From an uncultured Candidatus Saccharibacteria bacterium (GTDB lineage: Bacteria; Patescibacteriota; UBA1384; 2-12-FULL-50-11), in the NCBI GenBank assembly GCA_964599405.1, contig CAZRED010000001.1, forward strand, positions 75,528 through 139,527: a DNA stretch of 64,000 nucleotides, given 5' to 3'. Position numbers and translations under genes: made by a program. Position 1 is the stretch's first letter. Each line of letters begins with the position of its first letter. This document shows, one piece after another, positions 9,758-40,162 of this stretch. The notes under the pieces are model-generated. The model ran no database searches, had not been told where the DNA came from, and saw nothing but the letters and a program-made list of their open reading frames with translations.

Positions 9758-9993
9758 ATGGTAACCCGGCTAGCTACCCCAGTCAAGGTAAAATCAAGTC
9801 TCGAAGGGCTAATCTTTGAGGCCAGGACCGGATTTGCACCGGCGTAAAACGGTTTTGCAGACCGTCACCTCACTACTCGGTCACCTGGCCAATATAGACA
9901 TTATACCTGTAAATCTTAAGGTAAACGAGTGATTTGATAGGTATTTTCATTTTGCTACACTACCGACATCAACTAAACGGAGGTTGACGCACA

Positions 9994-25934: not shown

Positions 25935-26042
25935 GTTTCAATTGTATAGCAATTGGGGCATTGCTTGGTGGTCGGCAAACCGACCGCCATAGAAAAAGTG
26001 CGAAGGGCGGCGGCGCCCTTCGCACTGTGGGGGGGTGGTGGG

Positions 26043-28403: not shown

Positions 28404-28901
28404 TTGCGGTTAATGCCACAGAAGCTCGATCAATACCGCGACCCAATCCTGGCTACCAATGAAAAAGTGATCGGTTTTTACGAGCGCGAATTTTATGTTT
28501 TTTCTAATTTCTCTAGTTTCCAGGTGGAGTGGCGGGGACGGCTTTGGCCAACGTCTGAACACGCTTTCCAGGCCGCCCATTTTTTCGACACTGCGCCGGA
28601 GCTGGTTGAACAAATTTTTAATGCCCGTTCCGCCCACGATGCTTTTAAAATCGCTAAAGCCAACGGCGACAAAGCGCCGAAGAATTGGGAAGAAATCAAA
28701 GTTGGGATTATGGAAGATATCTGCCGCCACAAACTCCTGCAACACCCTTACGTCGAAAAGAAGCTCCGCCAAACCAAAGACTGGCCGCTCGTGGAAGACT
28801 CGCCGAGCGATCCTTGCTGGGGTTGGGGTAAAGACCGGAAAGGCCGTAACGAACTCGGCAAGGTTTGGATGCGTCTGCGCGACGAACTCAATAAAAAGTA
28901 A
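28404..28901 (+). CDS. NADAR-domain protein (YbiA/DUF1768-like)
   Basis: FYVFSNFS...WPTSEHAFQAAHFFD NADAR signature; 165 aa. Confidence 0.65.
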   Translation: MRLMPQKLDQYRDPILATNEKVIGFYEREFYVFSNFSSFQVEWRGRLWPTSEHAFQAAHFFDTAPELVEQIFNARSAHDAFKIAKANGDKAPKNWEEIKVGIMEDICRHKLLQHPYVEKKLRQTKDWPLVEDSPSDPCWGWGKDRKGRNELGKVWMRLRDELNKK

Positions 28902-28933
28902 TTTCCAGCGGGTGGATACAATAAGGTGGCGAA

Positions 28934-29341
28934 CTAGCTTTTAGAGTGATGTTCCAACCAGCTGGCAATTTCTGGTAGTGCTACTTGTTTGCTTGCTACT
29001 TTCATCACAAATTGTTCTGCTTCTTGATTGGAAGCTGTCAGCTTAAAACCGTTGATAAATAAAAACCGAGCAACGCTAGCCAAGCCGGTGCGTTTATTGC
29101 CGTCAACGAAGATTTGATACGCCGCAAAACTTTCCAGATAGGTCGCGGCTTTGAGAAAAACTGTCGGGAATTGTTCTTCACCAAATACCGCTGACTTTGG
29201 TCTTTCGGCAGTTGATAGAAATAAGTTCATATCACGGACACCATGAGATCCACCAACTTTTTCGATGATTTGGTGATGGATATACAATATCTCCTCGCCA
29301 GTCAGATAGCGCGCCTGGCGATTACTTTTTGGCAAGCTCAT
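28934..29341 (-). CDS. doc: Doc/Fic-family toxin
   Basis: FVDGNKRTG Fic/Doc motif; start moved to MSLPKSNRQARYL (ORF-track N-extension unlikely). Confidence 0.7.
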   Translation of the reverse strand: MSLPKSNRQARYLTGEEILYIHHQIIEKVGGSHGVRDMNLFLSTAERPKSAVFGEEQFPTVFLKAATYLESFAAYQIFVDGNKRTGLASVARFLFINGFKLTASNQEAEQFVMKVASKQVALPEIASWLEHHSKS

Positions 29342-29531
29342 CAAGTGCCGGTCGGTACTGGTCAATGAACTTATTTGTCCACTCGTGTAGCTCTGGGCTA
29401 ATGACAGTTTTGGCTGGTTTTTTGACGATAACCTCAACCTGGTCGCCCACGGTGACGTTCAGTTTTTTCAGCTCGCTTTTAGGAATAATTACTCCTGTTG
29501 AACTGCCGATCTTGATCAGTTTTTGAGTCAT
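29322..29531 (-). CDS. AbrB/MazE-fold antitoxin (Phd-like partner of Doc)
   Basis: MTQKLIKIGSSTGVIIPKSELKKLNVTVGD; 20-nt overlap with doc. Confidence 0.65.
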   Translation of the reverse strand: MTQKLIKIGSSTGVIIPKSELKKLNVTVGDQVEVIVKKPAKTVISPELHEWTNKFIDQYRPALDELAKK

Positions 29532-29565
29532 GTTTCGATTATAACTTTATAATAATAATCGTCAA
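29529..29565 (-). promoter_or_regulatory. leaderless promoter TTGACG-16-TATAAT-6 nt-ATG for the antitoxin gene
   Basis: Minus strand: TTGACG (plus 29560-29565), TATAAT (plus 29538-29543), ATG at 29531. Confidence 0.55.
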
Positions 29566-29666
29566 TGTGAAAAACTTCCGGCGGGTGGGGTTGAGGTGGA
29601 GGGGTTCATTTTTCGCTGTTTTTCGGTTATACTCTTCGCAACGCACTTTCAATTGGTAAAAAACAA

Positions 29667-32525: not shown

Positions 32526-33305
32526 TTATGGTCGGAGAGTCCCGGCAAAGACCTGCCAGGCCAGTAAGCTCTTGGCGACAAGTGAAAGAATAATATACGC
32601 CCGTTCGCCGTAGAGATAATCCGCCCATTTACCGATCTTTTTGTACTGGAGGGTCATATTGATAGCAAAACAGTTGAAGAAAACGAAGATCGAAACGTAA
32701 ATCCAGTAAACAAACGTTGGGATATCGCCGGAGCCGTAGCGACTAGCCGCCCAAAACCAAATTGCCACCACCAACCACGGGATTACCCCGGCAAACGTCC
32801 CCAACTTAAAGGCCAACCAATTGGGTTTTTGGCCGCTCTCTAATGTGCCTTGGTTGTATATTTCCATTGCCAGGCCAGTGAGATTCATGATTGCCACTAA
32901 GGCAAAAATCATCAGCAAACTCGTCAGGTCATAGATCCCCACCAACATAGCAATGGCCACCATCATGACTGAAGCCGAGACGCTGTACTCCCACCACCGG
33001 GCCTTATTGACGCCCCTAAGCAGGTTGGCGTTGTAACTGCGATTGTAAACAGTGGCAATAATCAGGTGGGCCAGGGCGGAGATTGCCAGAAATCCCGCTA
33101 CCAGCCAGACCAGAGGCATATTAAACAGTGTCTCACTAGCTGGGATCAGCGATTGGCTAGCGATATCAAAGCGCAAGAAACCGACATTAACCGGCAAGGA
33201 AAAATCAGCGCTCAAATATACAATCGCCGCCGCCTGCAGTGCATGCAGCAGTGCCATAACCAAATTGAACTTACGTAGCTTTGCTAATCTAACGTCTTGC
33301 TCCAT
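32526..33305 (-). CDS. heliorhodopsin (7-TM retinal protein)
   Basis: Full-length collinearity with heliorhodopsin: FNLVMALLHALQ, RWWEYSVSASVMMV (E counterion), GVIPW, KWADYLYGERAYIILSLVAKSLLAWQ (Schiff-base Lys). Confidence 0.8.
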   Translation of the reverse strand: MEQDVRLAKLRKFNLVMALLHALQAAAIVYLSADFSLPVNVGFLRFDIASQSLIPASETLFNMPLVWLVAGFLAISALAHLIIATVYNRSYNANLLRGVNKARWWEYSVSASVMMVAIAMLVGIYDLTSLLMIFALVAIMNLTGLAMEIYNQGTLESGQKPNWLAFKLGTFAGVIPWLVVAIWFWAASRYGSGDIPTFVYWIYVSIFVFFNCFAINMTLQYKKIGKWADYLYGERAYIILSLVAKSLLAWQVFAGTLRP

Positions 33306-33484
33306 CGCCCCTCCTCCATTTATTTAACGATACCGCAATCCGCCAACGCAACAAGCAATATCAAACCAAACGCTAGGCAGGGAGTGGAATTTCTCTTTAG
33401 TTAGTTGGTTAGTTCGGGTTTTTCTTCTATGTGTTTGTCAGTAGTCATTATGGTGTTCTAGCAGTATTAGCGAAGCGTCAGAGT

Positions 33485-34000
33485 TAGAAAGTTAGTTATA
33501 TATTTATAAAGAACTCCCCTTTTTCCATTTCCATACCTTAAAGATAGTCATATTTTGGTGCAACTGCTGCACCAGTTCAAAGCCGGGGTTACAAAGCTTA
33601 GTTATATATTTATAGAGACTCCACTTTGGCGATTGTACTTACCTGTTAGAGCGATCTTTTTTGTCTCAGCTGCTGAGACGTTTTGTTAGATGAAACTAAT
33701 GAGTACTAAGTGGTGTAGATATGTATAGAAAGTGTAGTGATTTTTATTGATGAAGCTGTGAATGTCTTGGAAGTGGTATCAGGCCGGATGTTTCTTAGTA
33801 TATATATTAATAAAGACTCTACTTTTTCTTTCAGTTAACCAGGAAATTGAACGAATTTAGGAGCAACAGCTGCTCTTTTTGGGTAGCGAAGCCGAACATT
33901 AGCAGGGGGTCAGTAATATATATAAAGAGTAGTGAATTTTGTTTACTAAACCTGCAAAGATCGGCTTTTCGGTATCAGGCCTGATACCGGTGTCTCCAGG
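33485..34000 (+). repeat. tandem array of 5 degenerate ~105-bp units, each with AT-rich TATAAAG box and downstream hairpin
   Basis: TATA(A/G)AG boxes at 33505, 33611, 33723, 33809, 33921. Hairpins 50-52 nt downstream: GGTGCAactgcTGCACC (33557), GTCTCAGCtgcTGAGAC+GTTTTG (33663), GAGCAacagcTGCTC+TTTTTG (33859), GGTATCAGGccTGATACC (33972). Confidence 0.6.
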
Positions 34001-34153
34001 TAATTAATTGGCGTGCAGTGACGGTATACTTACGAAATAAATCGCTACTCCAACCGCCGCCAGAATTATCGCTACCCACCAAACTGGATTCATGGTTTTA
34101 GTTTAGCAAAAACGGTAGTACCCAACGAATAATCGCTTGTATAGTGGAAGAGT

Positions 34154-35884
34154 CTACGTAGTATCAGTAAAACATACGTTGTAGATCTCGTCGCCCAAAT
34201 CTTTCCAATGACTAGATTTATAATTGAAGGTTTCCGTGGAGAAATCTATTTTTCCAGAAAGTTTACTAAAGCCCTTATCATAGTAAGCGAAGCCATTCAC
34301 CTTATTATTCTCGATCAATATACGCATACAATGAATCAAGCCAGTAATCGTAGTCACGGTCAGCGCTCGGCTAACCTTCTGCTTAGTGGTCCACATATCG
34401 TTCGGTATTTGGTTCTTGAATGCTTTAAGAAACTCATTTATTTCTTTAGTGCAAAATTCTACGTATTCATTTAATAGGGCAGTATCTTTACCGTCTCTAA
34501 GCTCACTCTTTTTCCCTTCACTCCAAACATTAAAAAGCGTGTCCTTCCCTGAAAGCTTAACTACGTGCCTTACTCCGTAGGAAACTATAGATGTTGTTTT
34601 TAGCTTACCCTTGTCGAAAAAGTGTCTTTCGAGAACTTTATCCATTGGGTCAAGCTCAGCAAGTTTATTCATTACCTTCTTGGCTATAGATACCTCGTCG
34701 AACGGATTTACTATTGTATTAATTACTTGACGGAGAGACCCACTGGTTCTTGTCTGTCTATCATTAATTTCTAAAAATAGCTTCGCTTCAAACCTTCCTC
34801 GGTCTTCGAGAGATAGGTCGCTAGGGAAGACAATACCCGTAATCAAAAGGTGCTGCTTATCTCTTAAACTACTAATGTGCGTGTCATGTGCATCATCACC
34901 TTCATGGTATGAAAATACCCTATGTTGTCCGTCGATAATCCCAATGTTCCCGGCAACCTTTGGGATCCTAATTTTTATAGGATCCTTCATTACCCCTGTA
35001 CTTATTGGGAGATTTATCCGGTCGTTACTTTCATACTCAAGAAGTTGTAAGTCATTAGGTAAAGAGACGATGATATTATTTACGAATACCCGACCCTCAC
35101 TAGCAAGGTACTTACGCATATTACGTATTTTGTTACCGAGGATAATTCTTTGATAAACAAAGTCACTATCTTGCCAACCATCCCTTCTCAGTACATAAGC
35201 TTGCTTTAATAAGGTGTTTGGGTCAATTAGAAAAGATACCAGGTTATGCCCACTTGGAAAGCCACTCGGAGTTTCTGGAAGAATAAGGCCAACATAATCA
35301 TCCCCCGGAGAGCCGCTATTCTGTGGCCCTATCTCCTCAAATCCAACCCCGATAAATTTAAATAGTTCGAATCTTGCAGATCTTTTAATCGTTTTTGAGA
35401 GGCTTAAGAAATAACTACGTGACTTGTAATCCATAAAATGAAGGTGCTGATAACGATCTCTAAGTGACTGAGTTACCTCTTCGTGCGAAACATATAAGAA
35501 TGCTAACTTAATATCATGACTAGCGTAGCCCGCGGTAGAATTTTTCCCGTAATTTGGGATTTTGCTCTTAAAAAGCTCAATTAAGTCATTTTGGTTGTTC
35601 TTGCAGTTAGTAAAGAACTCAGCTTTCTTCCGAAGGTGATCAGTATCACTTGTTGTAGTATCCTCTACGATAAGAATAAGGTTCTCGAAAACAAAAACAT
35701 TATCTAGATCGCTTTCTTGTCCACATAGATTAATTTTAAAGTCTTCGGCGACTGCCATAAATCCCATATTGCTAAAGGTAGTGCGTACGTCCCTTCTAAT
35801 TTTTCTCTTAAGGCCTAATCTTTCACTGTCTGATAGGTTAGGCATATTATTTATTGTCTTGATGCATAATTCTCTTATACCCAA
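34154..35884 (-). CDS. DGQHR-domain (DndB-like, ParB/Srx fold) protein
   Basis: GIIDGQHRV at aa 318-322, codons verified at 34919-34933. 576 aa with about 220 aa N-terminal domain of unknown function. Overlaps upstream MTase stop. Confidence 0.7.
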   Translation of the reverse strand: MGIRELCIKTINNMPNLSDSERLGLKRKIRRDVRTTFSNMGFMAVAEDFKINLCGQESDLDNVFVFENLILIVEDTTTSDTDHLRKKAEFFTNCKNNQNDLIELFKSKIPNYGKNSTAGYASHDIKLAFLYVSHEEVTQSLRDRYQHLHFMDYKSRSYFLSLSKTIKRSARFELFKFIGVGFEEIGPQNSGSPGDDYVGLILPETPSGFPSGHNLVSFLIDPNTLLKQAYVLRRDGWQDSDFVYQRIILGNKIRNMRKYLASEGRVFVNNIIVSLPNDLQLLEYESNDRINLPISTGVMKDPIKIRIPKVAGNIGIIDGQHRVFSYHEGDDAHDTHISSLRDKQHLLITGIVFPSDLSLEDRGRFEAKLFLEINDRQTRTSGSLRQVINTIVNPFDEVSIAKKVMNKLAELDPMDKVLERHFFDKGKLKTTSIVSYGVRHVVKLSGKDTLFNVWSEGKKSELRDGKDTALLNEYVEFCTKEINEFLKAFKNQIPNDMWTTKQKVSRALTVTTITGLIHCMRILIENNKVNGFAYYDKGFSKLSGKIDFSTETFNYKSSHWKDLGDEIYNVCFTDTT

Positions 35885-36770
35885 ACTTCAAATATTTTTT
35901 ATTAAGCTCTGCCCCCACTGAGTTTCTGCCCTGCTTTTCGGCAGCGACAGAGGTAGTAAACGTACCAGCGAAGGGGTCGAAAATCGTATCTCCCTTATTG
36001 CTACTCACTTTTATAAAGAGCTCTAGCAAATTCAGTGGCAGTTGGCATGGATGGTCTTTCTCCTTCAGCTCGCCCGGCTCCATGGACCGAAACTTATTTC
36101 CAAGGTTCCGAACTCGATCCTTGGAATTATTCTTCATCATGTGCATATCTATAGTATCGATTAGGCCATCTTGTAGCTCTATCAGATCAAGGAACCTTAA
36201 TAAGTCGTATGAGGTTCTGCCCTTAGATCCTTCTGCGATACGTTTCCGTACTACTGGCGCGGTTGGATTTTTATAGTGCTGTACTAAATTTTCTCTATTG
36301 AAGACATAGCCCTTCGTTGACTTAGTAAAAAATAAAACAGACCTCTGGCTTCGCGTATAATTATTTTTTGAATGCCCAATATTTGTGGGGTAGTGCCATG
36401 TAATCCATCTCCGGTAATTAAGACCTAGCTCATCTTGAAGATAGGGCAGAAGGCGGGCATTAATCTCGGGGTAACTAATTAGGTAGAAGCTCCCCTTGTC
36501 ACTTAAGATTCTTGGGATATCGCGCAATTTGGCTTCTAGCCAGGCATAATACTCCTTCCAGGACTTGGAGTCGTCAAAGCTACCATAGTCGAGCCCCATA
36601 TTGTAGGGAGGATCCGTAATAATGAGGTCTATACTTTTACTAGGGATCTGACTGATTATCTGTTCGCAATCACCTAGCACGAGGATGTGTCCTGTTTTTT
36701 CTTTCTCAATAAAGTCAAAGGCAAAGCCTTGCTTGCTTATAGGTTTGAGGATAGATTTTATATTCCTCAT
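35847..36770 (-). CDS. DNA methyltransferase (beta class, DPPY; N4-C or N6-A)
   Basis: LIITDPPYNMG motif IV, N6_N4_Mtase-like; 307 aa. Confidence 0.75.
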   Translation of the reverse strand: MRNIKSILKPISKQGFAFDFIEKEKTGHILVLGDCEQIISQIPSKSIDLIITDPPYNMGLDYGSFDDSKSWKEYYAWLEAKLRDIPRILSDKGSFYLISYPEINARLLPYLQDELGLNYRRWITWHYPTNIGHSKNNYTRSQRSVLFFTKSTKGYVFNRENLVQHYKNPTAPVVRKRIAEGSKGRTSYDLLRFLDLIELQDGLIDTIDMHMMKNNSKDRVRNLGNKFRSMEPGELKEKDHPCQLPLNLLELFIKVSSNKGDTIFDPFAGTFTTSVAAEKQGRNSVGAELNKKYLKFGYKRIMHQDNK

Positions 36771-36807
36771 AAGCCTATTCTATACAAATATTCTCGAAAA
36801 GAAGTGA

Positions 36808-37899
36808 CTATTTTTTGCCTTTGCGGCGGTTATCGTCGCGGCAGAGCATTTGGCAGTTATCGGCATTAGTTTTTCCGCCCTCAACCCACGGCGTAATGTG
36901 GTCGGCTTCCATTTCTTCAATCTCAAAATGTTTACCACAATCCGGACAAACACCTTTCTGTCGTTCAAAGGCCTCGCGTTTCATGTTATCGGTAAACGCC
37001 CGAATATTTAGACACTTTTCTTCACGGGTTAGAACATATTCATAGATACCGGACTTTTTTGTTACGTCTTCGTCCATCATCAACTGTGTAACTTCCGCTT
37101 CCAGCTTGTCGGTATCGAACTTATCGTCCTTAAATTGATTGTAAAATCTGCCCCAATCCAAACCTTTCATTTCTTTTCGATACTTCGGAAAAGTCAGACG
37201 TGTCCAGCTTATAACATTTTGGAAGTACGACCAAAGCTCATTGGCATTTTGGTCGTGTTGGTGCTTGGCCATGTAGTCTTCTATTTTTCCGTCGTTAATC
37301 CAAGCTAGCGTAGTTTCCAGTATCTCTTGCCGAATTGGCGAACCGTTCACTAGCTGCCCGCCATCGCTAGCTAGCAAATAAGCTGCACAGTTAGATTTGC
37401 TGAATTTCAGTTTGGCGTCACTTAGCCATGGTCCAGTATAAATCGCATTGCGGAGCTCTTGGTCGGTTAATTTTTCGCCAGCGATGTTAATGATTCTGAA
37501 CCAATCCAGTCTTTCTTTGTCGGTGCCTTCGCACCAGTAAATCATCAGCTCATAGTCCTGAATTTGCTTCTGTTCCTCATCAGTTAGGTTGTGGAAAAAG
37601 CGATCTTTGAGCGAAAAATCACCGTTGACATATTGCCCAATACTTATTGTTCGTTGCTGGCCGTCCATAACTTCAAAGTTCCCTTGGTCGGTTTTGACCC
37701 AATACATTACGTTCAGCGGAAAACCATTTTTAATCGTTTCTATTACTGCGTCGCGCTGCTTGTCTTTATAAACAAATTCACGTTGGTATCTTGGGCGGAT
37801 GTCGAGTTTACCACCGTAAGCTATGACGCCTTCCTCGGCGCTGTCTTTGTAGCCGACGATCACTTCTCGAACAGGAATTCGTTGTAGTTCAATTTTCAT
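36808..37899 (-). CDS. DUF262 (DGQQR NTPase-like, ParB fold) + HNH endonuclease; SspE/GmrSD-like
   Basis: VMDGQQRTISIGQY (codons verified at 37651-37665). C-terminal CPDCGKHF...ADHITPW...NADNCQMLCRDDNRRKG HNH. Confidence 0.75.
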   Translation of the reverse strand: MKIELQRIPVREVIVGYKDSAEEGVIAYGGKLDIRPRYQREFVYKDKQRDAVIETIKNGFPLNVMYWVKTDQGNFEVMDGQQRTISIGQYVNGDFSLKDRFFHNLTDEEQKQIQDYELMIYWCEGTDKERLDWFRIINIAGEKLTDQELRNAIYTGPWLSDAKLKFSKSNCAAYLLASDGGQLVNGSPIRQEILETTLAWINDGKIEDYMAKHQHDQNANELWSYFQNVISWTRLTFPKYRKEMKGLDWGRFYNQFKDDKFDTDKLEAEVTQLMMDEDVTKKSGIYEYVLTREEKCLNIRAFTDNMKREAFERQKGVCPDCGKHFEIEEMEADHITPWVEGGKTNADNCQMLCRDDNRRKGKK

Positions 37900-38983
37900 T
37901 TTGTGTCCTTTTCCTTTGCTTAATTATTATTCTTGCGTATGTCGCTTTGCCGTTGATGATAGCGCCTACATATTTTTTATGCTGTTCATCAAGATATGTT
38001 GGATTCCCTTGTATTAACGAGTCTGACTTCTCTCTCTTGTCTGCAAATAAGCCAATAATTTCAAACTGTTGGGGGTTATATTTATCTAGAAAAGTAATCG
38101 GAACACCCATTGCACCATTCCAATCCATAGGTACGTCTGCAAACTTAGAAACCTCTATCGCATCATAATTGTCGTATTTTGGATATTCTTCAGGCGTGTA
38201 TTTTTTATACAAGTCTACCTCCTCGTGACGCTTGGTGGTGTCAAGGTTTGTGAACCATACTATGCTTCCCATACTGATGTATTTGATGCCATTCTCGATT
38301 TTCTTTCTTGATTCGGTCGGGATATCGTAATCATCAGGAACTTGGAACCACTTTGTGCCACCATTATCATATCCAAGCCACATTTTATTTTCTTTAATAA
38401 GTTTGAAGGTCTCTTTATACGTGATGGCATTCTGGTTACCAAGAATCAAAAACTTTTTATCATATTCCATAAGCTGCGCCACATACTCGCGAAACAATGA
38501 AAACGGCGGGTTTGTCACTACGATATCGGCTTCTTTGAGCAGCTCTATACACTCATGACTTCTAAAATCACCGTTGCCTTGTAAGGACGATGAAGTATTT
38601 TTAGTGTGCTTTATAAGATTCTGAACATCACCCAAATCTACAGCGCCATCACCATCACTGTCAGGCACTTCGTTTACTTCGACTTTAAATGGTTGCTTAC
38701 CATCTGGCTTTAGACCCTCCATCTCGAAGATTGGCAACTGCGTTCCAGCAATAGGCGATTTAGTGTAGCTGGTGGCGATAAGTTTTTTTAAGCCCAAATG
38801 GTTAAAGCTGCTCGCAAAATACTTGAAAAAATTACTCTCATACGGATCGTCACAATTACAAAAAACAACCTTGCTGCGGAATTGATCTTTGTATCGCGTT
38901 AACTCTTTTTCGATATCAGCACGTTGTGTGTAAAACTCGTCCTTTTTCTGCAACTTTGCTGTATGTAAATTATTCTGCGCCAT
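37889..38983 (-). CDS. N6-adenine DNA methyltransferase (NPPF motif)
   Basis: IVVTNPPFSLF motif IV; 364 aa; TAATG coupling with upstream small ORF. Confidence 0.7.
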   Translation of the reverse strand: MAQNNLHTAKLQKKDEFYTQRADIEKELTRYKDQFRSKVVFCNCDDPYESNFFKYFASSFNHLGLKKLIATSYTKSPIAGTQLPIFEMEGLKPDGKQPFKVEVNEVPDSDGDGAVDLGDVQNLIKHTKNTSSSLQGNGDFRSHECIELLKEADIVVTNPPFSLFREYVAQLMEYDKKFLILGNQNAITYKETFKLIKENKMWLGYDNGGTKWFQVPDDYDIPTESRKKIENGIKYISMGSIVWFTNLDTTKRHEEVDLYKKYTPEEYPKYDNYDAIEVSKFADVPMDWNGAMGVPITFLDKYNPQQFEIIGLFADKREKSDSLIQGNPTYLDEQHKKYVGAIINGKATYARIIIKQRKRTQNEN

Positions 38984-39252
38984 TAAATTAGCCGGGTGTT
39001 TTTGAGCTTTGCTAGGTAGCTAAAGTCATCTTCTGATATTTTGGGCACAACATTGAACGTTATTTTCGTTTTTGATGTGTCGCTTATTGCACCGCCTAAT
39101 ACTACAAAGTATTTTATCTCTCCCTTAGCTTCTTTTGTTGATTCAACTTCTACCTCAACTTTTATCGCACCCCAAACTACACCGTTCTTAAGATTATTGA
39201 TAAGTTCGTTGGTGAGATTCTCAATGTAAGATGAAAGCTCAACTTTCTCCAT
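38983..39252 (-). CDS. small operon-leading protein of unknown function
   Basis: 89 aa; its stop overlaps the MTase start (TAATG). Confidence 0.45.
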   Translation of the reverse strand: MEKVELSSYIENLTNELINNLKNGVVWGAIKVEVEVESTKEAKGEIKYFVVLGGAISDTSKTKITFNVVPKISEDDFSYLAKLKNTRLI

Positions 39253-39289
39253 TTGCCAAATTCTACTCTTTTTAACCTGAAAAAGCCAG

Positions 39290-39330
39290 GTTTGGGGAAC
39301 AACCCACCCCGGGTGGGTTGTTCAGGGGCT
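39290..39330 (-). terminator. tandem hairpins between HEPN-like gene and defense operon (attenuator/terminator)
   Basis: CAACCCACCccgGGTGGGTTG and AACCTGgctttttCAGGTT. Confidence 0.4.
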
Positions 39331-39408
39331 ATGGTCGCGCGGGACAGATTTGGTCACGGTAGATCGGGTAAATCAACTAATAACATTCTTGCATATGGAA
39401 GGGATTAA

Positions 39409-40131
39409 TTATCTTTTTTTGAATTTTTTACAATTGCAACCATCCGTTAAGCATTCTACAAAAAGAATATTTTTCCCCTTCATTACGAAATGAGCAGCTT
39501 TTGCATGACCGCAGTCACAGATAGCAAACAGACCCTTTTTCCTGCCGAATTCTACTACTTCCTCATTAGATACAACACCATAAGTTTTCGCGAAACTTCT
39601 TTCACTTCTAGAATTAATCTTCTTTGATGCGAGATATTCAACTTTTACCTCTATGCCGTTATCTATCCTGCTCTTTGTCATTCCGTAACCAGTAGCAACT
39701 TGTTTGTCTTCCAATGATTTATTTATCTTATTTAACTCTTGAAAAATCTTTTCGTACCGTGAACATGCCAAACCAAGATGGGAATACTCTATTTCGCTAG
39801 TAAAAAACCTGTGGATTGCCTTATTCCTGACATCATAGAGTTTATTCAGCTCGTCATATATTGATCGGGTGATAATTTTTTTCTCATATGCTAATTGATA
39901 AATTATCCTCTCTGACAAGTAATCGTTTCCTTCTTGAAAAATATATTTCTCAGTAATTCTGTTGGTTTTTTCTTCTAGCTGTTGCTCTAAAACTAGACAA
40001 ATCCGACACTGTGCTTCGACTAGAGAAGAATACAATACCAACCCCTCTATTAACGAGCCATTATCATAAGCCTTATTGAGCAGTAACCTTGTTGCAGCAA
40101 ATGCGGAAATAAAGTTTTCTAACTTTTTCAT
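39409..40131 (-). CDS. HEPN-like (Rx4H) protein with C-terminal Cys-rich zinc ribbon
   Basis: DVRNKAIHR Rx4H motif; C-terminal CDCGH...CLTDGCNC; 240 aa. Starts 23 nt after the dnaK stop. Confidence 0.45.
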   Translation of the reverse strand: MKKLENFISAFAATRLLLNKAYDNGSLIEGLVLYSSLVEAQCRICLVLEQQLEEKTNRITEKYIFQEGNDYLSERIIYQLAYEKKIITRSIYDELNKLYDVRNKAIHRFFTSEIEYSHLGLACSRYEKIFQELNKINKSLEDKQVATGYGMTKSRIDNGIEVKVEYLASKKINSRSERSFAKTYGVVSNEEVVEFGRKKGLFAICDCGHAKAAHFVMKGKNILFVECLTDGCNCKKFKKR

Positions 40132-40142
40132 TTACCCAAGAG

Positions 40143-40162
40143 AAAGAGAGCTGGTTAGCTCT
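40143..40162 (-). terminator. weak hairpin overlapping dnaK stop (partial terminator, read-through likely)
   Basis: AGAGAGCTggttAGCTCTCT followed on the minus strand by TTCTCTT then ATG of the HEPN-like gene. Confidence 0.35.

What the first reader, a model, noticed from the sequence alone, without database searches (positions are those of the whole stretch)
33485..34000. Tandem array of five promoter-box + hairpin units: candidate small-RNA gene cluster with stem covariation
Five units of 86-112 bp each begin with an AT-rich box TTAGT(T/A)ATATAT(T/A)TATAAAGA(A/G)(C/T)TC. Four of the five also carry a hairpin 50-52 nt downstream of the TATAAAG box; unit 2b (33714-33739) has no clean hairpin.

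The hairpin stems differ in sequence (GGTGCA/TGCACC, GTCTCAGC/GCTGAGAC, GAGCA/TGCTC, GGTATCAGG/CCTGATACC) while keeping position and a GCTGC-like loop. That is compensatory variation expected of functional RNA. Two hairpins are followed by T-runs, making them terminator-like.

The array is not a CRISPR array because the repeats are degenerate, there are no unique spacers and no cas genes. It sits at the boundary of the AT-rich module, next to the heliorhodopsin gene.
Basis: seen in the sequence. Interest (0 to 1): 0.75.

Follow-up and report, generated by a model that had tools for sequence, protein, structure and literature searches.

The report
Tandem candidate small-RNA genes, orphan
An 850-base gene-free gap next to a heliorhodopsin gene in a Patescibacteria genome holds five diverged copies of a ~100-base unit, and three of them keep the same AT-rich box and the same two RNA hairpins through compensating mutations, so they are most likely a small family of duplicated regulatory-RNA genes seen nowhere else so far and not yet shown to be transcribed.

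Summary
The repeats are real, but the five units are of two kinds, in the order A-A-B-A-B. A2+B1 and A3+B2 form a ~197-bp tandem duplication.

In the A units the box is 74-87% identical between copies, against 28-49% for the rest of each unit. They keep two in-register hairpins, not one. Eight of 13 pairs change on both sides and 95% of cells stay paired. The consensus energy is -11.7, against -0.8±1.2 in 1000 column shuffles. Five G·U cells, no A·C cells, and T-runs after two of the hairpins all point to + strand RNA.

B2 is a distant paralog with a different, loopless palindrome. B1 looks decayed.

I found no coding remnant, no Rfam match and no other copy in the window. Public genome, metagenome, viral, phage and plasmid collections gave nothing. 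Relatives of either flanking gene lack the array.

The box does not fit the promoter types seen elsewhere in this genome, and nothing here shows transcription.

Best reading, about 0.45: a lineage-specific cluster of sibling small RNAs. That is a known kind, in a new orphan family. A1 could pair with the heliorhodopsin ribosome-binding site, but that match is not significant after multiple testing.

The parts
33492..33584 (+). Unit A1. Box 33492-33521. Pyrimidine-rich stretch CCCCTTTTTCCATTT 33516-33530. Hairpin 1 at 33527-33548 (4 of 6 pairs). Hairpin 2 at 33556-33574 (GGTGCA/TGCACC, loop ACTGC). No T-run follows.
   Evidence: CM score 99.9 bits
33598..33690 (+). Unit A2. Box 33598-33627. Hairpin 1 at 33633-33654 (6 of 6 pairs). 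Hairpin 2 at 33662-33680 (GTCTCAG/CTGAGAC), followed by TTTTGTT 33681-33687. This is the only site the terminator scan accepts.
   Evidence: CM score 99.6 bits
33714..33794 (+). Unit B1, probably decayed. B-type box 33714-33748. Remnant of the B palindrome GGTATCAGGCCGGAT at 33775-33789. No stable fold (z = +0.83).
33795..33888 (+). Unit A3. Box 33795-33825. Hairpin 1 at 33830-33851 (6 of 6 pairs). Hairpin 2 at 33859-33877 (core GAGCA/TGCTC, loop ACAGC), followed by TTTTT 33876-33880.
   Evidence: CM score 93.4 bits
33911..33989 (+). Unit B2. B-type box 33911-33943. A 5' hairpin at 33930-33948. A perfect 20-nt palindrome CGGTATCAGGCCTGATACCG at 33970-33989. It is a distant full-length match to the A-unit model.
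   Evidence: z = -2.54; 19.8 bits, E 0.43, model positions 1-93
34004..34093 (-). Neighbour, not part of the repeats: a 29-aa hydrophobic ORF that converges on the B2 palindrome. TTGCTAAACT at 34100-34109 lies 6 nt before its ATG (leaderless type).
   Evidence: the same motif and spacing precede heliorhodopsin in L004
33308..33321 (-). Shine-Dalgarno region of the heliorhodopsin mRNA (AAAUGGAGGAGGGG on the minus strand). It can form 14 contiguous pairs, 3 of them G·U, with A1 33516-33530.
   Evidence: (D5); not significant after multiple testing

Best explanation
The gap holds a lineage-specific cluster of paralogous short RNA genes ('sibling' small RNAs) made by local tandem duplication and read on the + strand. 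Three copies (A1-A3) look intact, one distant paralog (B2) may be, and one (B1) is decaying.

Inferred anatomy of an A unit:
- an AT-rich box whose upstream part serves transcription initiation or its control;
- a downstream part of the box, GA(A)CUCYMCUUU, that is the conserved single-stranded, pyrimidine-rich 5' end of the RNA;
- hairpin 1, with an invariant ACC in its loop;
- a U-rich linker;
- hairpin 2, which in A2 and A3 is followed by a U-run and would end a transcript of roughly 65-75 nt.

Inferred mechanism: base pairing of the CU-rich 5' end or the loop with purine-rich ribosome-binding sites of target mRNAs. The neighbouring heliorhodopsin mRNA is one candidate target of A1.

What is shown: the repeats, the uneven conservation, the two covarying hairpins, the strand bias, and the absence of coding signal and of homologs.

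What is inferred: transcription, promoter function, RNA ends, targets.
For: - The repeat families and the duplication structure are established.
- Conservation is concentrated in the box. It has 22 of 31 invariant columns against 12 of 72 elsewhere (Fisher p 1.7e-7). Pairwise identity is 74-87% in the box, against 34-49% in the spacer and 28-44% in the tail.
- Hairpin 2: 100% of cells are paired, three pairs change on both sides, and 10 of 500 shuffles reach this.
- Both hairpins together: 94.9% of cells paired, 8 of 13 pairs with changes on both sides, 0 of 500 shuffles reach this, and slid-partner controls give 33-64%.
- Column-shuffle null for RNAalifold: observed -11.69 against -0.76±1.17 kcal/mol (0 of 1000). 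There are 8 covarying pairs against a mean of 1.5 (5 of 1000).
- Strand: 5 G·U cells and no A·C cells. Hairpin 1 is not recovered on the minus strand. T-runs follow the A2 and A3 hairpins on the + strand.
- All five units share one orientation, and no + strand gene lies upstream or downstream. The + strand terminators therefore make sense only if transcription starts inside the gap.
- No coding remnant.
- Conserved ends with a variable middle, in tandem, is the pattern described for OmrA/OmrB. CU-rich pairing to Shine-Dalgarno regions is described for LhrC (PMC4211561, PMC5880928).
- A1's best contiguous match among 63 translation-initiation regions is heliorhodopsin: 14 pairs, next best 11.
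Against: - There is no expression data.
- The box is not a recognisable sigma-70 promoter. The scan finds 0 sites, there is no conserved -35 and no TGn. It also differs from the promoter types seen before tRNA and protein genes in this genome.
- Only three sequences, all paralogs in one genome, carry the covariation, and the tested structure was predicted from those same sequences.
- Folding energies of single units are not exceptional (z -0.8 to -1.1).
- A1 lacks a U-run, and A3's U-run can instead form the loop of an alternative hairpin.
- No homolog exists anywhere, including relatives with 90% identical heliorhodopsin or DnaK. Conservation over time therefore cannot be shown.
- The A1-heliorhodopsin pairing has p about 0.006 for one test, but about 315 unit-by-gene tests were made.
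Confidence: 0.45

Rival explanations
1. A non-functional by-product. The border of a horizontally acquired, AT-rich restriction-modification island underwent tandem duplications of an intergenic piece that once held a promoter and a terminator. The copies are now drifting. Boxes look conserved because of gene conversion or recent partial duplication. Stems stay paired through template-switch 'quasi-palindrome correction' rather than selection.
For: - The array is unique to this genome and sits in a segment that differs between close relatives.
- B1 is clearly decayed, and A1 has lost its U-run and two hairpin-1 pairs.
- The A2B1/A3B2 duplication shows that the region is recombinationally active.
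- The box does not fit the local promoter types.
Against: - Spacers have diverged to near-random identity (34-49%), yet 37 of 39 stem cells still pair. Eight pairs changed on both sides, in two separate hairpins at fixed spacing.
- Template switching would have to act repeatedly on both hairpins in three copies.
- G·U without A·C points to constraint at the RNA level, not the DNA level.
Confidence: 0.25
2. A cis-acting transcriptional buffer. The AT-rich boxes and + strand terminators insulate heliorhodopsin from the convergent defence-island operon. Alternatively, the whole array is a long structured 5' leader of a heliorhodopsin mRNA that starts at the TTGCTAAACT promoter at 34100. In either case the short RNAs have no trans function.
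For: - A promoter-type motif identical to the one directly before heliorhodopsin in relatives L002 and L004 lies 790 bp upstream of heliorhodopsin, on its strand.
- None of the hairpins has a U-run on the minus strand, so minus-strand read-through is possible.
- Terminators on the + strand would stop antisense transcription into the island.
Against: - TTGCTAnACT is a general motif in this genome, so homology with the relatives' heliorhodopsin promoter is not shown.
- Hairpin 1 is not recovered on the minus strand, and the G·U pairs become A·C mismatches there.
- A simple insulator would not need a conserved 30-nt box or a conserved hairpin 1.
Confidence: 0.12
3. An array of protein-binding sites. 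The boxes would be iterons, a centromere or operators for a regulator or nucleoid protein, possibly left over from a plasmid- or phage-derived element that brought in the island.
For: A conserved block of 25-30 bp is longer than a -10 element needs. There are five same-orientation copies at roughly 100-bp spacing.
Against: - No DnaA boxes occur in the gap.
- The island has no replication, partition or integrase gene.
- There is no similarity to any phage or plasmid.
- Spacing is irregular (81-116 bp) and much wider than known iterons (own knowledge).
- This reading does not explain the covarying hairpins.
Confidence: 0.08
4. A type I toxin-antitoxin-like pair. The 29-aa hydrophobic ORF (34004-34093, minus) would be a small membrane toxin, and the convergent B2 RNA its antisense partner. 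The other units would be duplicated or decayed antitoxin genes.
For: - The ORF is short and one-helix, with a strong promoter-type motif. It converges on B2 at a shared perfect palindrome.
- Type I loci are often tandemly duplicated (own knowledge).
Against: - If both RNAs end at the palindrome they overlap by only about 20 nt.
- No paralogous peptide ORF accompanies the other four units.
- The peptide has no charged tail and no detectable family.
- The A units show no complementarity to it beyond chance (I7/I8/I11).
Confidence: 0.05

Closest known systems
Tandem 'sibling' small RNAs (OmrA/OmrB, PrrF1/PrrF2, AbcR1/AbcR2, csRNAs; review PMC4211561)
   Same: Several paralogous units of about 70-110 nt lie head-to-tail in one intergenic region. 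They arose by duplication. The 5' end and the terminator region are conserved and the middle is variable (OmrA/B: first 21 and last 35 nt nearly identical). Each unit has its own upstream box and hairpin.
   Different: There is no sequence or Rfam relationship. Expression, promoter use and targets are unknown. Only one genome carries the array. The host is a Patescibacteria bacterium, a group for which I know of no described sRNA family (own knowledge; the one literature search made returned only the TIGR-Tas paper). Two diverged unit types alternate.
LhrC1-5 of Listeria monocytogenes (PMC5880928)
   Same: A multi-copy sRNA family whose copies each have their own promoter under one regulator. 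CU-rich regions pair with AG-rich Shine-Dalgarno sequences. Here every A unit starts with a CU-rich stretch, and A1 matches the heliorhodopsin SD.
   Different: In LhrC the CU-rich motifs sit in loops and single-stranded stretches of a different fold. There is no homology. The pairing here is only predicted and is not significant after multiple testing.
TIGR arrays with Tas (Nop-domain) proteins, found among others in Patescibacteria (PMC12045711)
   Same: Tandem non-CRISPR RNA arrays in the same bacterial group. One subtype has variable but consistently palindromic stems.
   Different: TIGR units are about 36 nt, with 8-12-nt repeats and 9-nt spacers, processed from one precursor, and lie next to a Nop-domain gene. 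Here the units are 81-116 bp with a 30-nt box, and no Nop-domain protein was found among the neighbours scanned. Not a member.
Type I toxin-antitoxin loci (own knowledge)
   Same: A small hydrophobic ORF lies next to convergent short RNA candidates, and the locus is duplicated in tandem.
   Different: Only one ORF accompanies five units, the predicted overlap is minimal, and no family match exists.

Membership tests
Tandem sibling sRNA gene cluster (kind, not a sequence family) | Two or more paralogous non-coding units, same orientation, in one intergenic region | tested here: met
   Three A and two B units, all on the + strand, in an 848-bp gap without credible ORFs
Tandem sibling sRNA gene cluster (kind, not a sequence family) | Secondary structure kept among paralogs by compensatory change | tested here: met
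   For A1-A3 only: 94.9% of cells paired, 8 of 13 pairs changed on both sides, 0 of 500 shuffles reach this. Consensus energy -11.69 against -0.76±1.17 in a column-shuffle null, 0 of 1000. n = 3.
Tandem sibling sRNA gene cluster (kind, not a sequence family) | Each unit has its own promoter | tested here: inconclusive
   A conserved AT-rich box lies upstream of each unit. However, there are 0 sigma-70-type sites, no conserved -35 or TGn, and the box is unlike this genome's tRNA and TTGCTAnACT promoters.
Tandem sibling sRNA gene cluster (kind, not a sequence family) | Each unit ends in an intrinsic terminator | tested here: inconclusive
   A2 passes the scan. A3 has a 5-7-bp stem plus TTTTT. 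A1, B1 and B2 have no U-run.
Tandem sibling sRNA gene cluster (kind, not a sequence family) | Discrete small transcripts are made, and they act on targets by base pairing | not testable with these tools
   No expression data are available. The predicted pairing of A1 with the heliorhodopsin SD (14 pairs) is a lead only.
Any Rfam family | Covariance-model score at or above the family's gathering threshold | tested here: not met
   Only tRNAs score in the window. In 33250-34200 at E up to 10 there are two meaningless hits.
CRISPR array | Near-identical short repeats separated by unique spacers of similar size, usually with cas genes | tested here: not met
   The repeats are degenerate and come in two kinds at 81-116-bp spacing. 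No Cas family turned up among the island proteins scanned, apart from one weak Cas7c-like hit (E 3e-4) in a 240-aa protein 5 kb away. Tandem Repeats Finder reports nothing in the gap.
TIGR-Tas | Units of about 36 nt with alternating 8-12-nt edge and loop repeats (or palindromic stems) around two ~9-nt spacers | tested here: not met
   Definition from PMC12045711. The units here are 81-116 bp with a 30-nt box.
TIGR-Tas | An adjacent Nop-domain (Tas) protein | tested here: not met
   Pfam and PADLOC scans of the neighbours show heliorhodopsin, methyltransferases, a GmrSD_N/HNH restriction enzyme and a DGQHR protein, but no Nop domain.
Type III toxin-antitoxin RNA repeats (ToxI-like) | Near-identical tandem repeats of about 34-45 nt under one promoter, followed by a toxin gene on the same strand (own knowledge) | tested here: not met
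   Unit size and degeneracy do not fit. No + strand gene lies downstream.
Type I toxin-antitoxin | A small hydrophobic toxin ORF whose mRNA overlaps or pairs with a small antisense RNA | tested here: inconclusive
   A 29-aa one-helix ORF converges on B2 at a shared palindrome. The overlap would be about 20 nt at most, and the other units have no ORF.
Replication origin or iteron array | A cluster of DnaA boxes or closely spaced iterons next to replication genes | tested here: not met
   There is no TTATCCACA-like site between 33306 and 34153, and no rep or par genes in the island.
Dispersed repeat or MITE (REP/BOX-like) | Many copies scattered through the genome | tested here: inconclusive
   There is no further copy in the 64-kb window or in about 4 kb of extra flank. 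None was found in public collections. The remaining ~260 kb of the 326-kb source contig, and any other contigs of this genome, could not be read.

The most novel reading that the evidence does not exclude
The A units are trans-acting small RNAs of a Patescibacteria bacterium, and their CU-rich 5' ends block ribosome binding on the adjacent heliorhodopsin mRNA. A1 33516-33530 could form 14 contiguous pairs across the AAAUGGAGGAGGGG Shine-Dalgarno region. This would be the first riboregulation described for a heliorhodopsin and for this bacterial group. It would tie expression of a light sensor of unknown function to a rapidly evolving RNA cluster at a defence-island border.
Probability: 0.08. 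Interest if true: 0.6.

Novelty: new member of a known kind. Interest (0 to 1): 0.33.

Why it matters
If the units are transcribed, this would be a rare documented case of a structured, duplicated small-RNA family in a Patescibacteria (CPR) genome. To my knowledge, riboregulation is essentially unexplored in this group.

It would also offer a testable candidate regulator for heliorhodopsin, a photoreceptor whose physiological role is still unclear.

Its value is limited. The family is an orphan, known from one genome. The evidence comes from three paralogs. Tandem sibling sRNAs are a familiar arrangement in other bacteria.

Tried and rejected
- **Homolog searches, all negative.**
  - The box pattern in genome contigs gave 14 single hits in unrelated AT-rich genomes. 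In metagenome contigs it gave 37 single hits. In viral contigs it gave 7 single hits, and the B box gave none.
  - nhmmer with unit profiles showed that none of these extends beyond the box. The two best, L048 and L060, were read and are chance.
  - blastn against phages and plasmids found nothing.
- **Heliorhodopsin relatives** at 90, 78 and 75% identity (L002, L004, L003) have short upstream gaps and no array.
- **Relatives of the DGQHR gene** (60-64% identity, L019-L024) have genes, not an array, downstream.
- **DnaK relatives** of at least 90% identity (L062, L063) keep synteny on the grpE side only.
- **The covariance model** of the A unit found nothing in any relative.
- **Walking along the source contig** gave only about 4 kb more sequence.
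- **Rejected readings.**
  - Pseudogene: no ORF or tblastx signal.
  - CRISPR, TIGR-Tas and ToxI-like repeats.
  - oriC: no DnaA boxes.
  - A conserved small peptide within the units: not conserved among copies.
- **A and B box complementarity.** I looked by eye for an inverted or complementary relation between the A and B boxes. It was not convincing.
- **RNA duplex energies.** RNA.duplexfold energies against all start regions did not discriminate, so I replaced them with a contiguous-pairing count.

Full report
**Setting.** The window is a bacterial chromosome segment with DnaK, RecG, a short AlaRS and nine tRNAs. The closest named homologs of its heliorhodopsin and DnaK come from Patescibacteria (CPR). 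GC content is about 50%, except for 33-40 kb at 37-43%.

The finding lies in an 848-bp gap, 33306-34153. On one side is the heliorhodopsin gene (32526-33305, minus strand; Pfam E 1e-93). On the other is the last gene of an AT-rich island that encodes two restriction-modification-like modules:
- an EcoRI-like methyltransferase with a GmrSD_N/HNH restriction enzyme;
- an N6_N4 methyltransferase with a DGQHR/DndB-like protein.

dnaK follows at 40155.

- The box pattern occurs three times in the window against zero expected.
- Repeat finding and alignments show two unit families.
  - A1, A2 and A3 start at 33492, 33598 and 33795. They share TTAGT(A)TATATATTWATARAGA(A)CTCYMCTTT.
  - B1 and B2 start at about 33714 and 33911. 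They share ATRTATAKAAAGWGTAGTGAWTTTT and a GGTATCAGGCC palindrome.
- The order is A-A-B-A-B, and A2B1/A3B2 is a ~197-bp tandem duplication.
It is not a variant of the A hairpin.
- A covariance model of the A unit matches B2 weakly but over its full length (19.8 bits, E 0.43). The B units are therefore probably old, diverged relatives of A.

**Conservation is uneven.** Among A1-A3 the box is 74-87% identical. The spacer is 34-49% identical and the tail 28-44%. The box has 22 of 31 invariant columns, against 12 of 72 outside the box and hairpin (Fisher p 1.7e-7).

**Structure.**
All six pairs form in all copies, and three pairs change on both sides (G-C/U-A, U-A/C-G/A-U, G-C/U-A). Ten of 500 shuffles do as well.
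- RNAalifold adds a second, upstream hairpin whose loop keeps an invariant ACC.
- For the two helices together, 94.9% of cells pair and 8 of 13 pairs change on both sides. No shuffle out of 500 reaches this, and sliding the partners gives 33-64%.
- The structure was predicted from the same three sequences, so I ran a column-shuffle null through the same predictor. The observed energy was -11.69 against -0.76±1.17 kcal/mol (0 of 1000). There were 8 covarying pairs against a mean of 1.5 (5 of 1000).
- Five paired cells are G·U and none of the unpaired cells is A·C. On the minus strand hairpin 1 is not recovered.
- T-runs follow the A2 and A3 hairpins on the + strand; the terminator scan accepts A2.
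- Single-unit folding energies are unremarkable (z about -1). The case rests on covariation, not on stability.
- B2 folds well (z -2.5). B1 does not (z +0.8).

**What it is not.**
- No ORF is conserved among units, and tblastx finds no coding remnant.
- Rfam finds nothing.
- It is not a CRISPR array.
- It is not a TIGR array. Those have ~36-nt units and an adjacent Nop-domain protein (PMC12045711). No such protein is found here.
- The gap has no DnaA boxes.

**Is it found elsewhere?** No.
- Profile and covariance searches find no other copy in the window.
- Exact-pattern scans of species-representative genomes, JGI metagenomes and viral contigs return only single chance matches in unrelated AT-rich DNA. 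Phage and plasmid collections give nothing.
- Relatives with 75-90% identical heliorhodopsin have short upstream gaps and different neighbours.
- The methyltransferase+DGQHR pair is conserved in other genomes without any array.
- Relatives with DnaK at least 90% identical keep synteny only on the grpE side. The segment between dnaK and heliorhodopsin is therefore variable.
- The array is an orphan, so all evidence for constraint is internal.

**Promoter question.**
- tRNA genes in this genome have TTTACA-17-TATAAT-type promoters. Several protein genes have TTGCTAnACT, sometimes 6 nt before the start codon, which implies leaderless mRNAs.
- The A box contains TATATT and TATAAA but has no conserved -35 and no TGn. 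The consensus scan finds no sigma-70-type site in the region.
- Promoter function is inferred only from logic. There is no + strand gene on either side, so + strand terminators spaced 100-200 bp apart have something to terminate only if transcription starts between them.
- The conserved block is about 30 nt long. That would fit a -10 region plus the conserved 5' end of the RNA, as in OmrA/OmrB.

**Most likely mechanism.** This is a cluster of sibling small RNAs of about 65-75 nt. Each has a single-stranded CU-rich 5' end, hairpin 1 with an ACC loop, a U-rich linker and a terminator hairpin. They probably act by pairing with purine-rich ribosome-binding sites, as CU-rich regions of LhrC do.

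A1's CCCCUUUUUCCAUUU can form 14 contiguous pairs, three of them G·U, with AAAUGGAGGAGGGG just upstream of the heliorhodopsin AUG. That is the best match among 63 start regions, and A3's best match is the same gene. With about 315 comparisons, a p of 0.006 is not significant. I give the sRNA-cluster reading about 0.45 and the heliorhodopsin-target idea under 0.1.

**Rivals.**
- Neutral decay of duplicated island-border DNA (0.25).
- A cis-acting insulator, or a long heliorhodopsin leader starting from the TTGCTAAACT motif at 34100 (0.12).
- A protein-binding array (0.08).
- A type I toxin-antitoxin-like pair formed by the 29-aa hydrophobic ORF at 34004-34093 and B2 (0.05).

**Verdict.** It remains an orphan, untranscribed-until-shown candidate of a well-known kind. 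Interest is modest.

Noticed in passing
window 34004-34112 (minus strand): A 29-aa one-helix ORF (MNPVWWVAIILAAVGVAIYFVSIPSLHAN) is preceded by the only perfect TTGCTAAACT in the window, 6 nt before its ATG. This implies a leaderless start. The same motif and spacing directly precede heliorhodopsin in relative L004, and a leadered version does so in L002. The array may therefore have been inserted between an ancestral heliorhodopsin promoter and the gene.
   Followed up: partly
L002 568-1476: In the closest relative (90% identical heliorhodopsin, assembly GCA_040959485.1) the called gene carries an in-frame 43-aa Cys-rich N-terminal extension (METHYVCKSCRGVSDHVKNCETDSCPLNGHPLEECHCQDGKHG). This could be a zinc-ribbon fusion or a separate small upstream ORF.
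   Followed up: no
window 34154-40131: The AT-rich island (37-43% GC) carries two restriction-modification-like modules. An N6_N4 methyltransferase paired with a ~570-aa DGQHR/DndB-like protein recurs as a conserved two-gene module in other metagenomic contigs (L019-L024), once next to a large serine recombinase. The partner of the EcoRI-like methyltransferase is a GmrSD_N+HNH protein that matches a type II REase model end to end.
   Followed up: partly
window 33306-40154 compared with L062 7596-9690 and L063 6518-7348: Relatives with DnaK at least 90% identical share gene order on the grpE/competence side of dnaK. Downstream of dnaK their genes are unrelated. This points to a variable-gene hotspot.
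   Followed up: partly
window 39409-40131 (minus strand): A 240-aa protein at the far end of the island has only weak hits (HEPN_RiboL-PSP E 0.012; Cas7c-like E 3e-4) and a Cys-rich C-terminus. Its function is unknown.
   Followed up: no
window 9952-9961, 25943-25952, 34100-34109; L004 545-565: TTGCTAnACT, an extended -10-like motif, recurs upstream of genes. It often lies 6-7 nt before the start codon, which suggests frequent leaderless mRNAs in this lineage. tRNA genes instead have classical TTTACA-17-TATAAT promoters.
   Followed up: partly
window 35942-35988: A 24-bp unit is repeated twice (79% match) inside the N6_N4 methyltransferase gene.
   Followed up: no
window 28404-29650: NADAR-domain and Fic/DOC genes sit a few kb from heliorhodopsin, together with a MazE-like antitoxin called in L001. 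This is another small mobile or defence-type cluster.
   Followed up: no
window 33397-33420: TTAGTT occurs three times in TTAGTTAGTTGGTTAGTT, followed by GGGTTTTTCTTC, about 95 bp before A1. It may be a sixth, fully decayed unit, but no profile hit supports this.
   Followed up: partly
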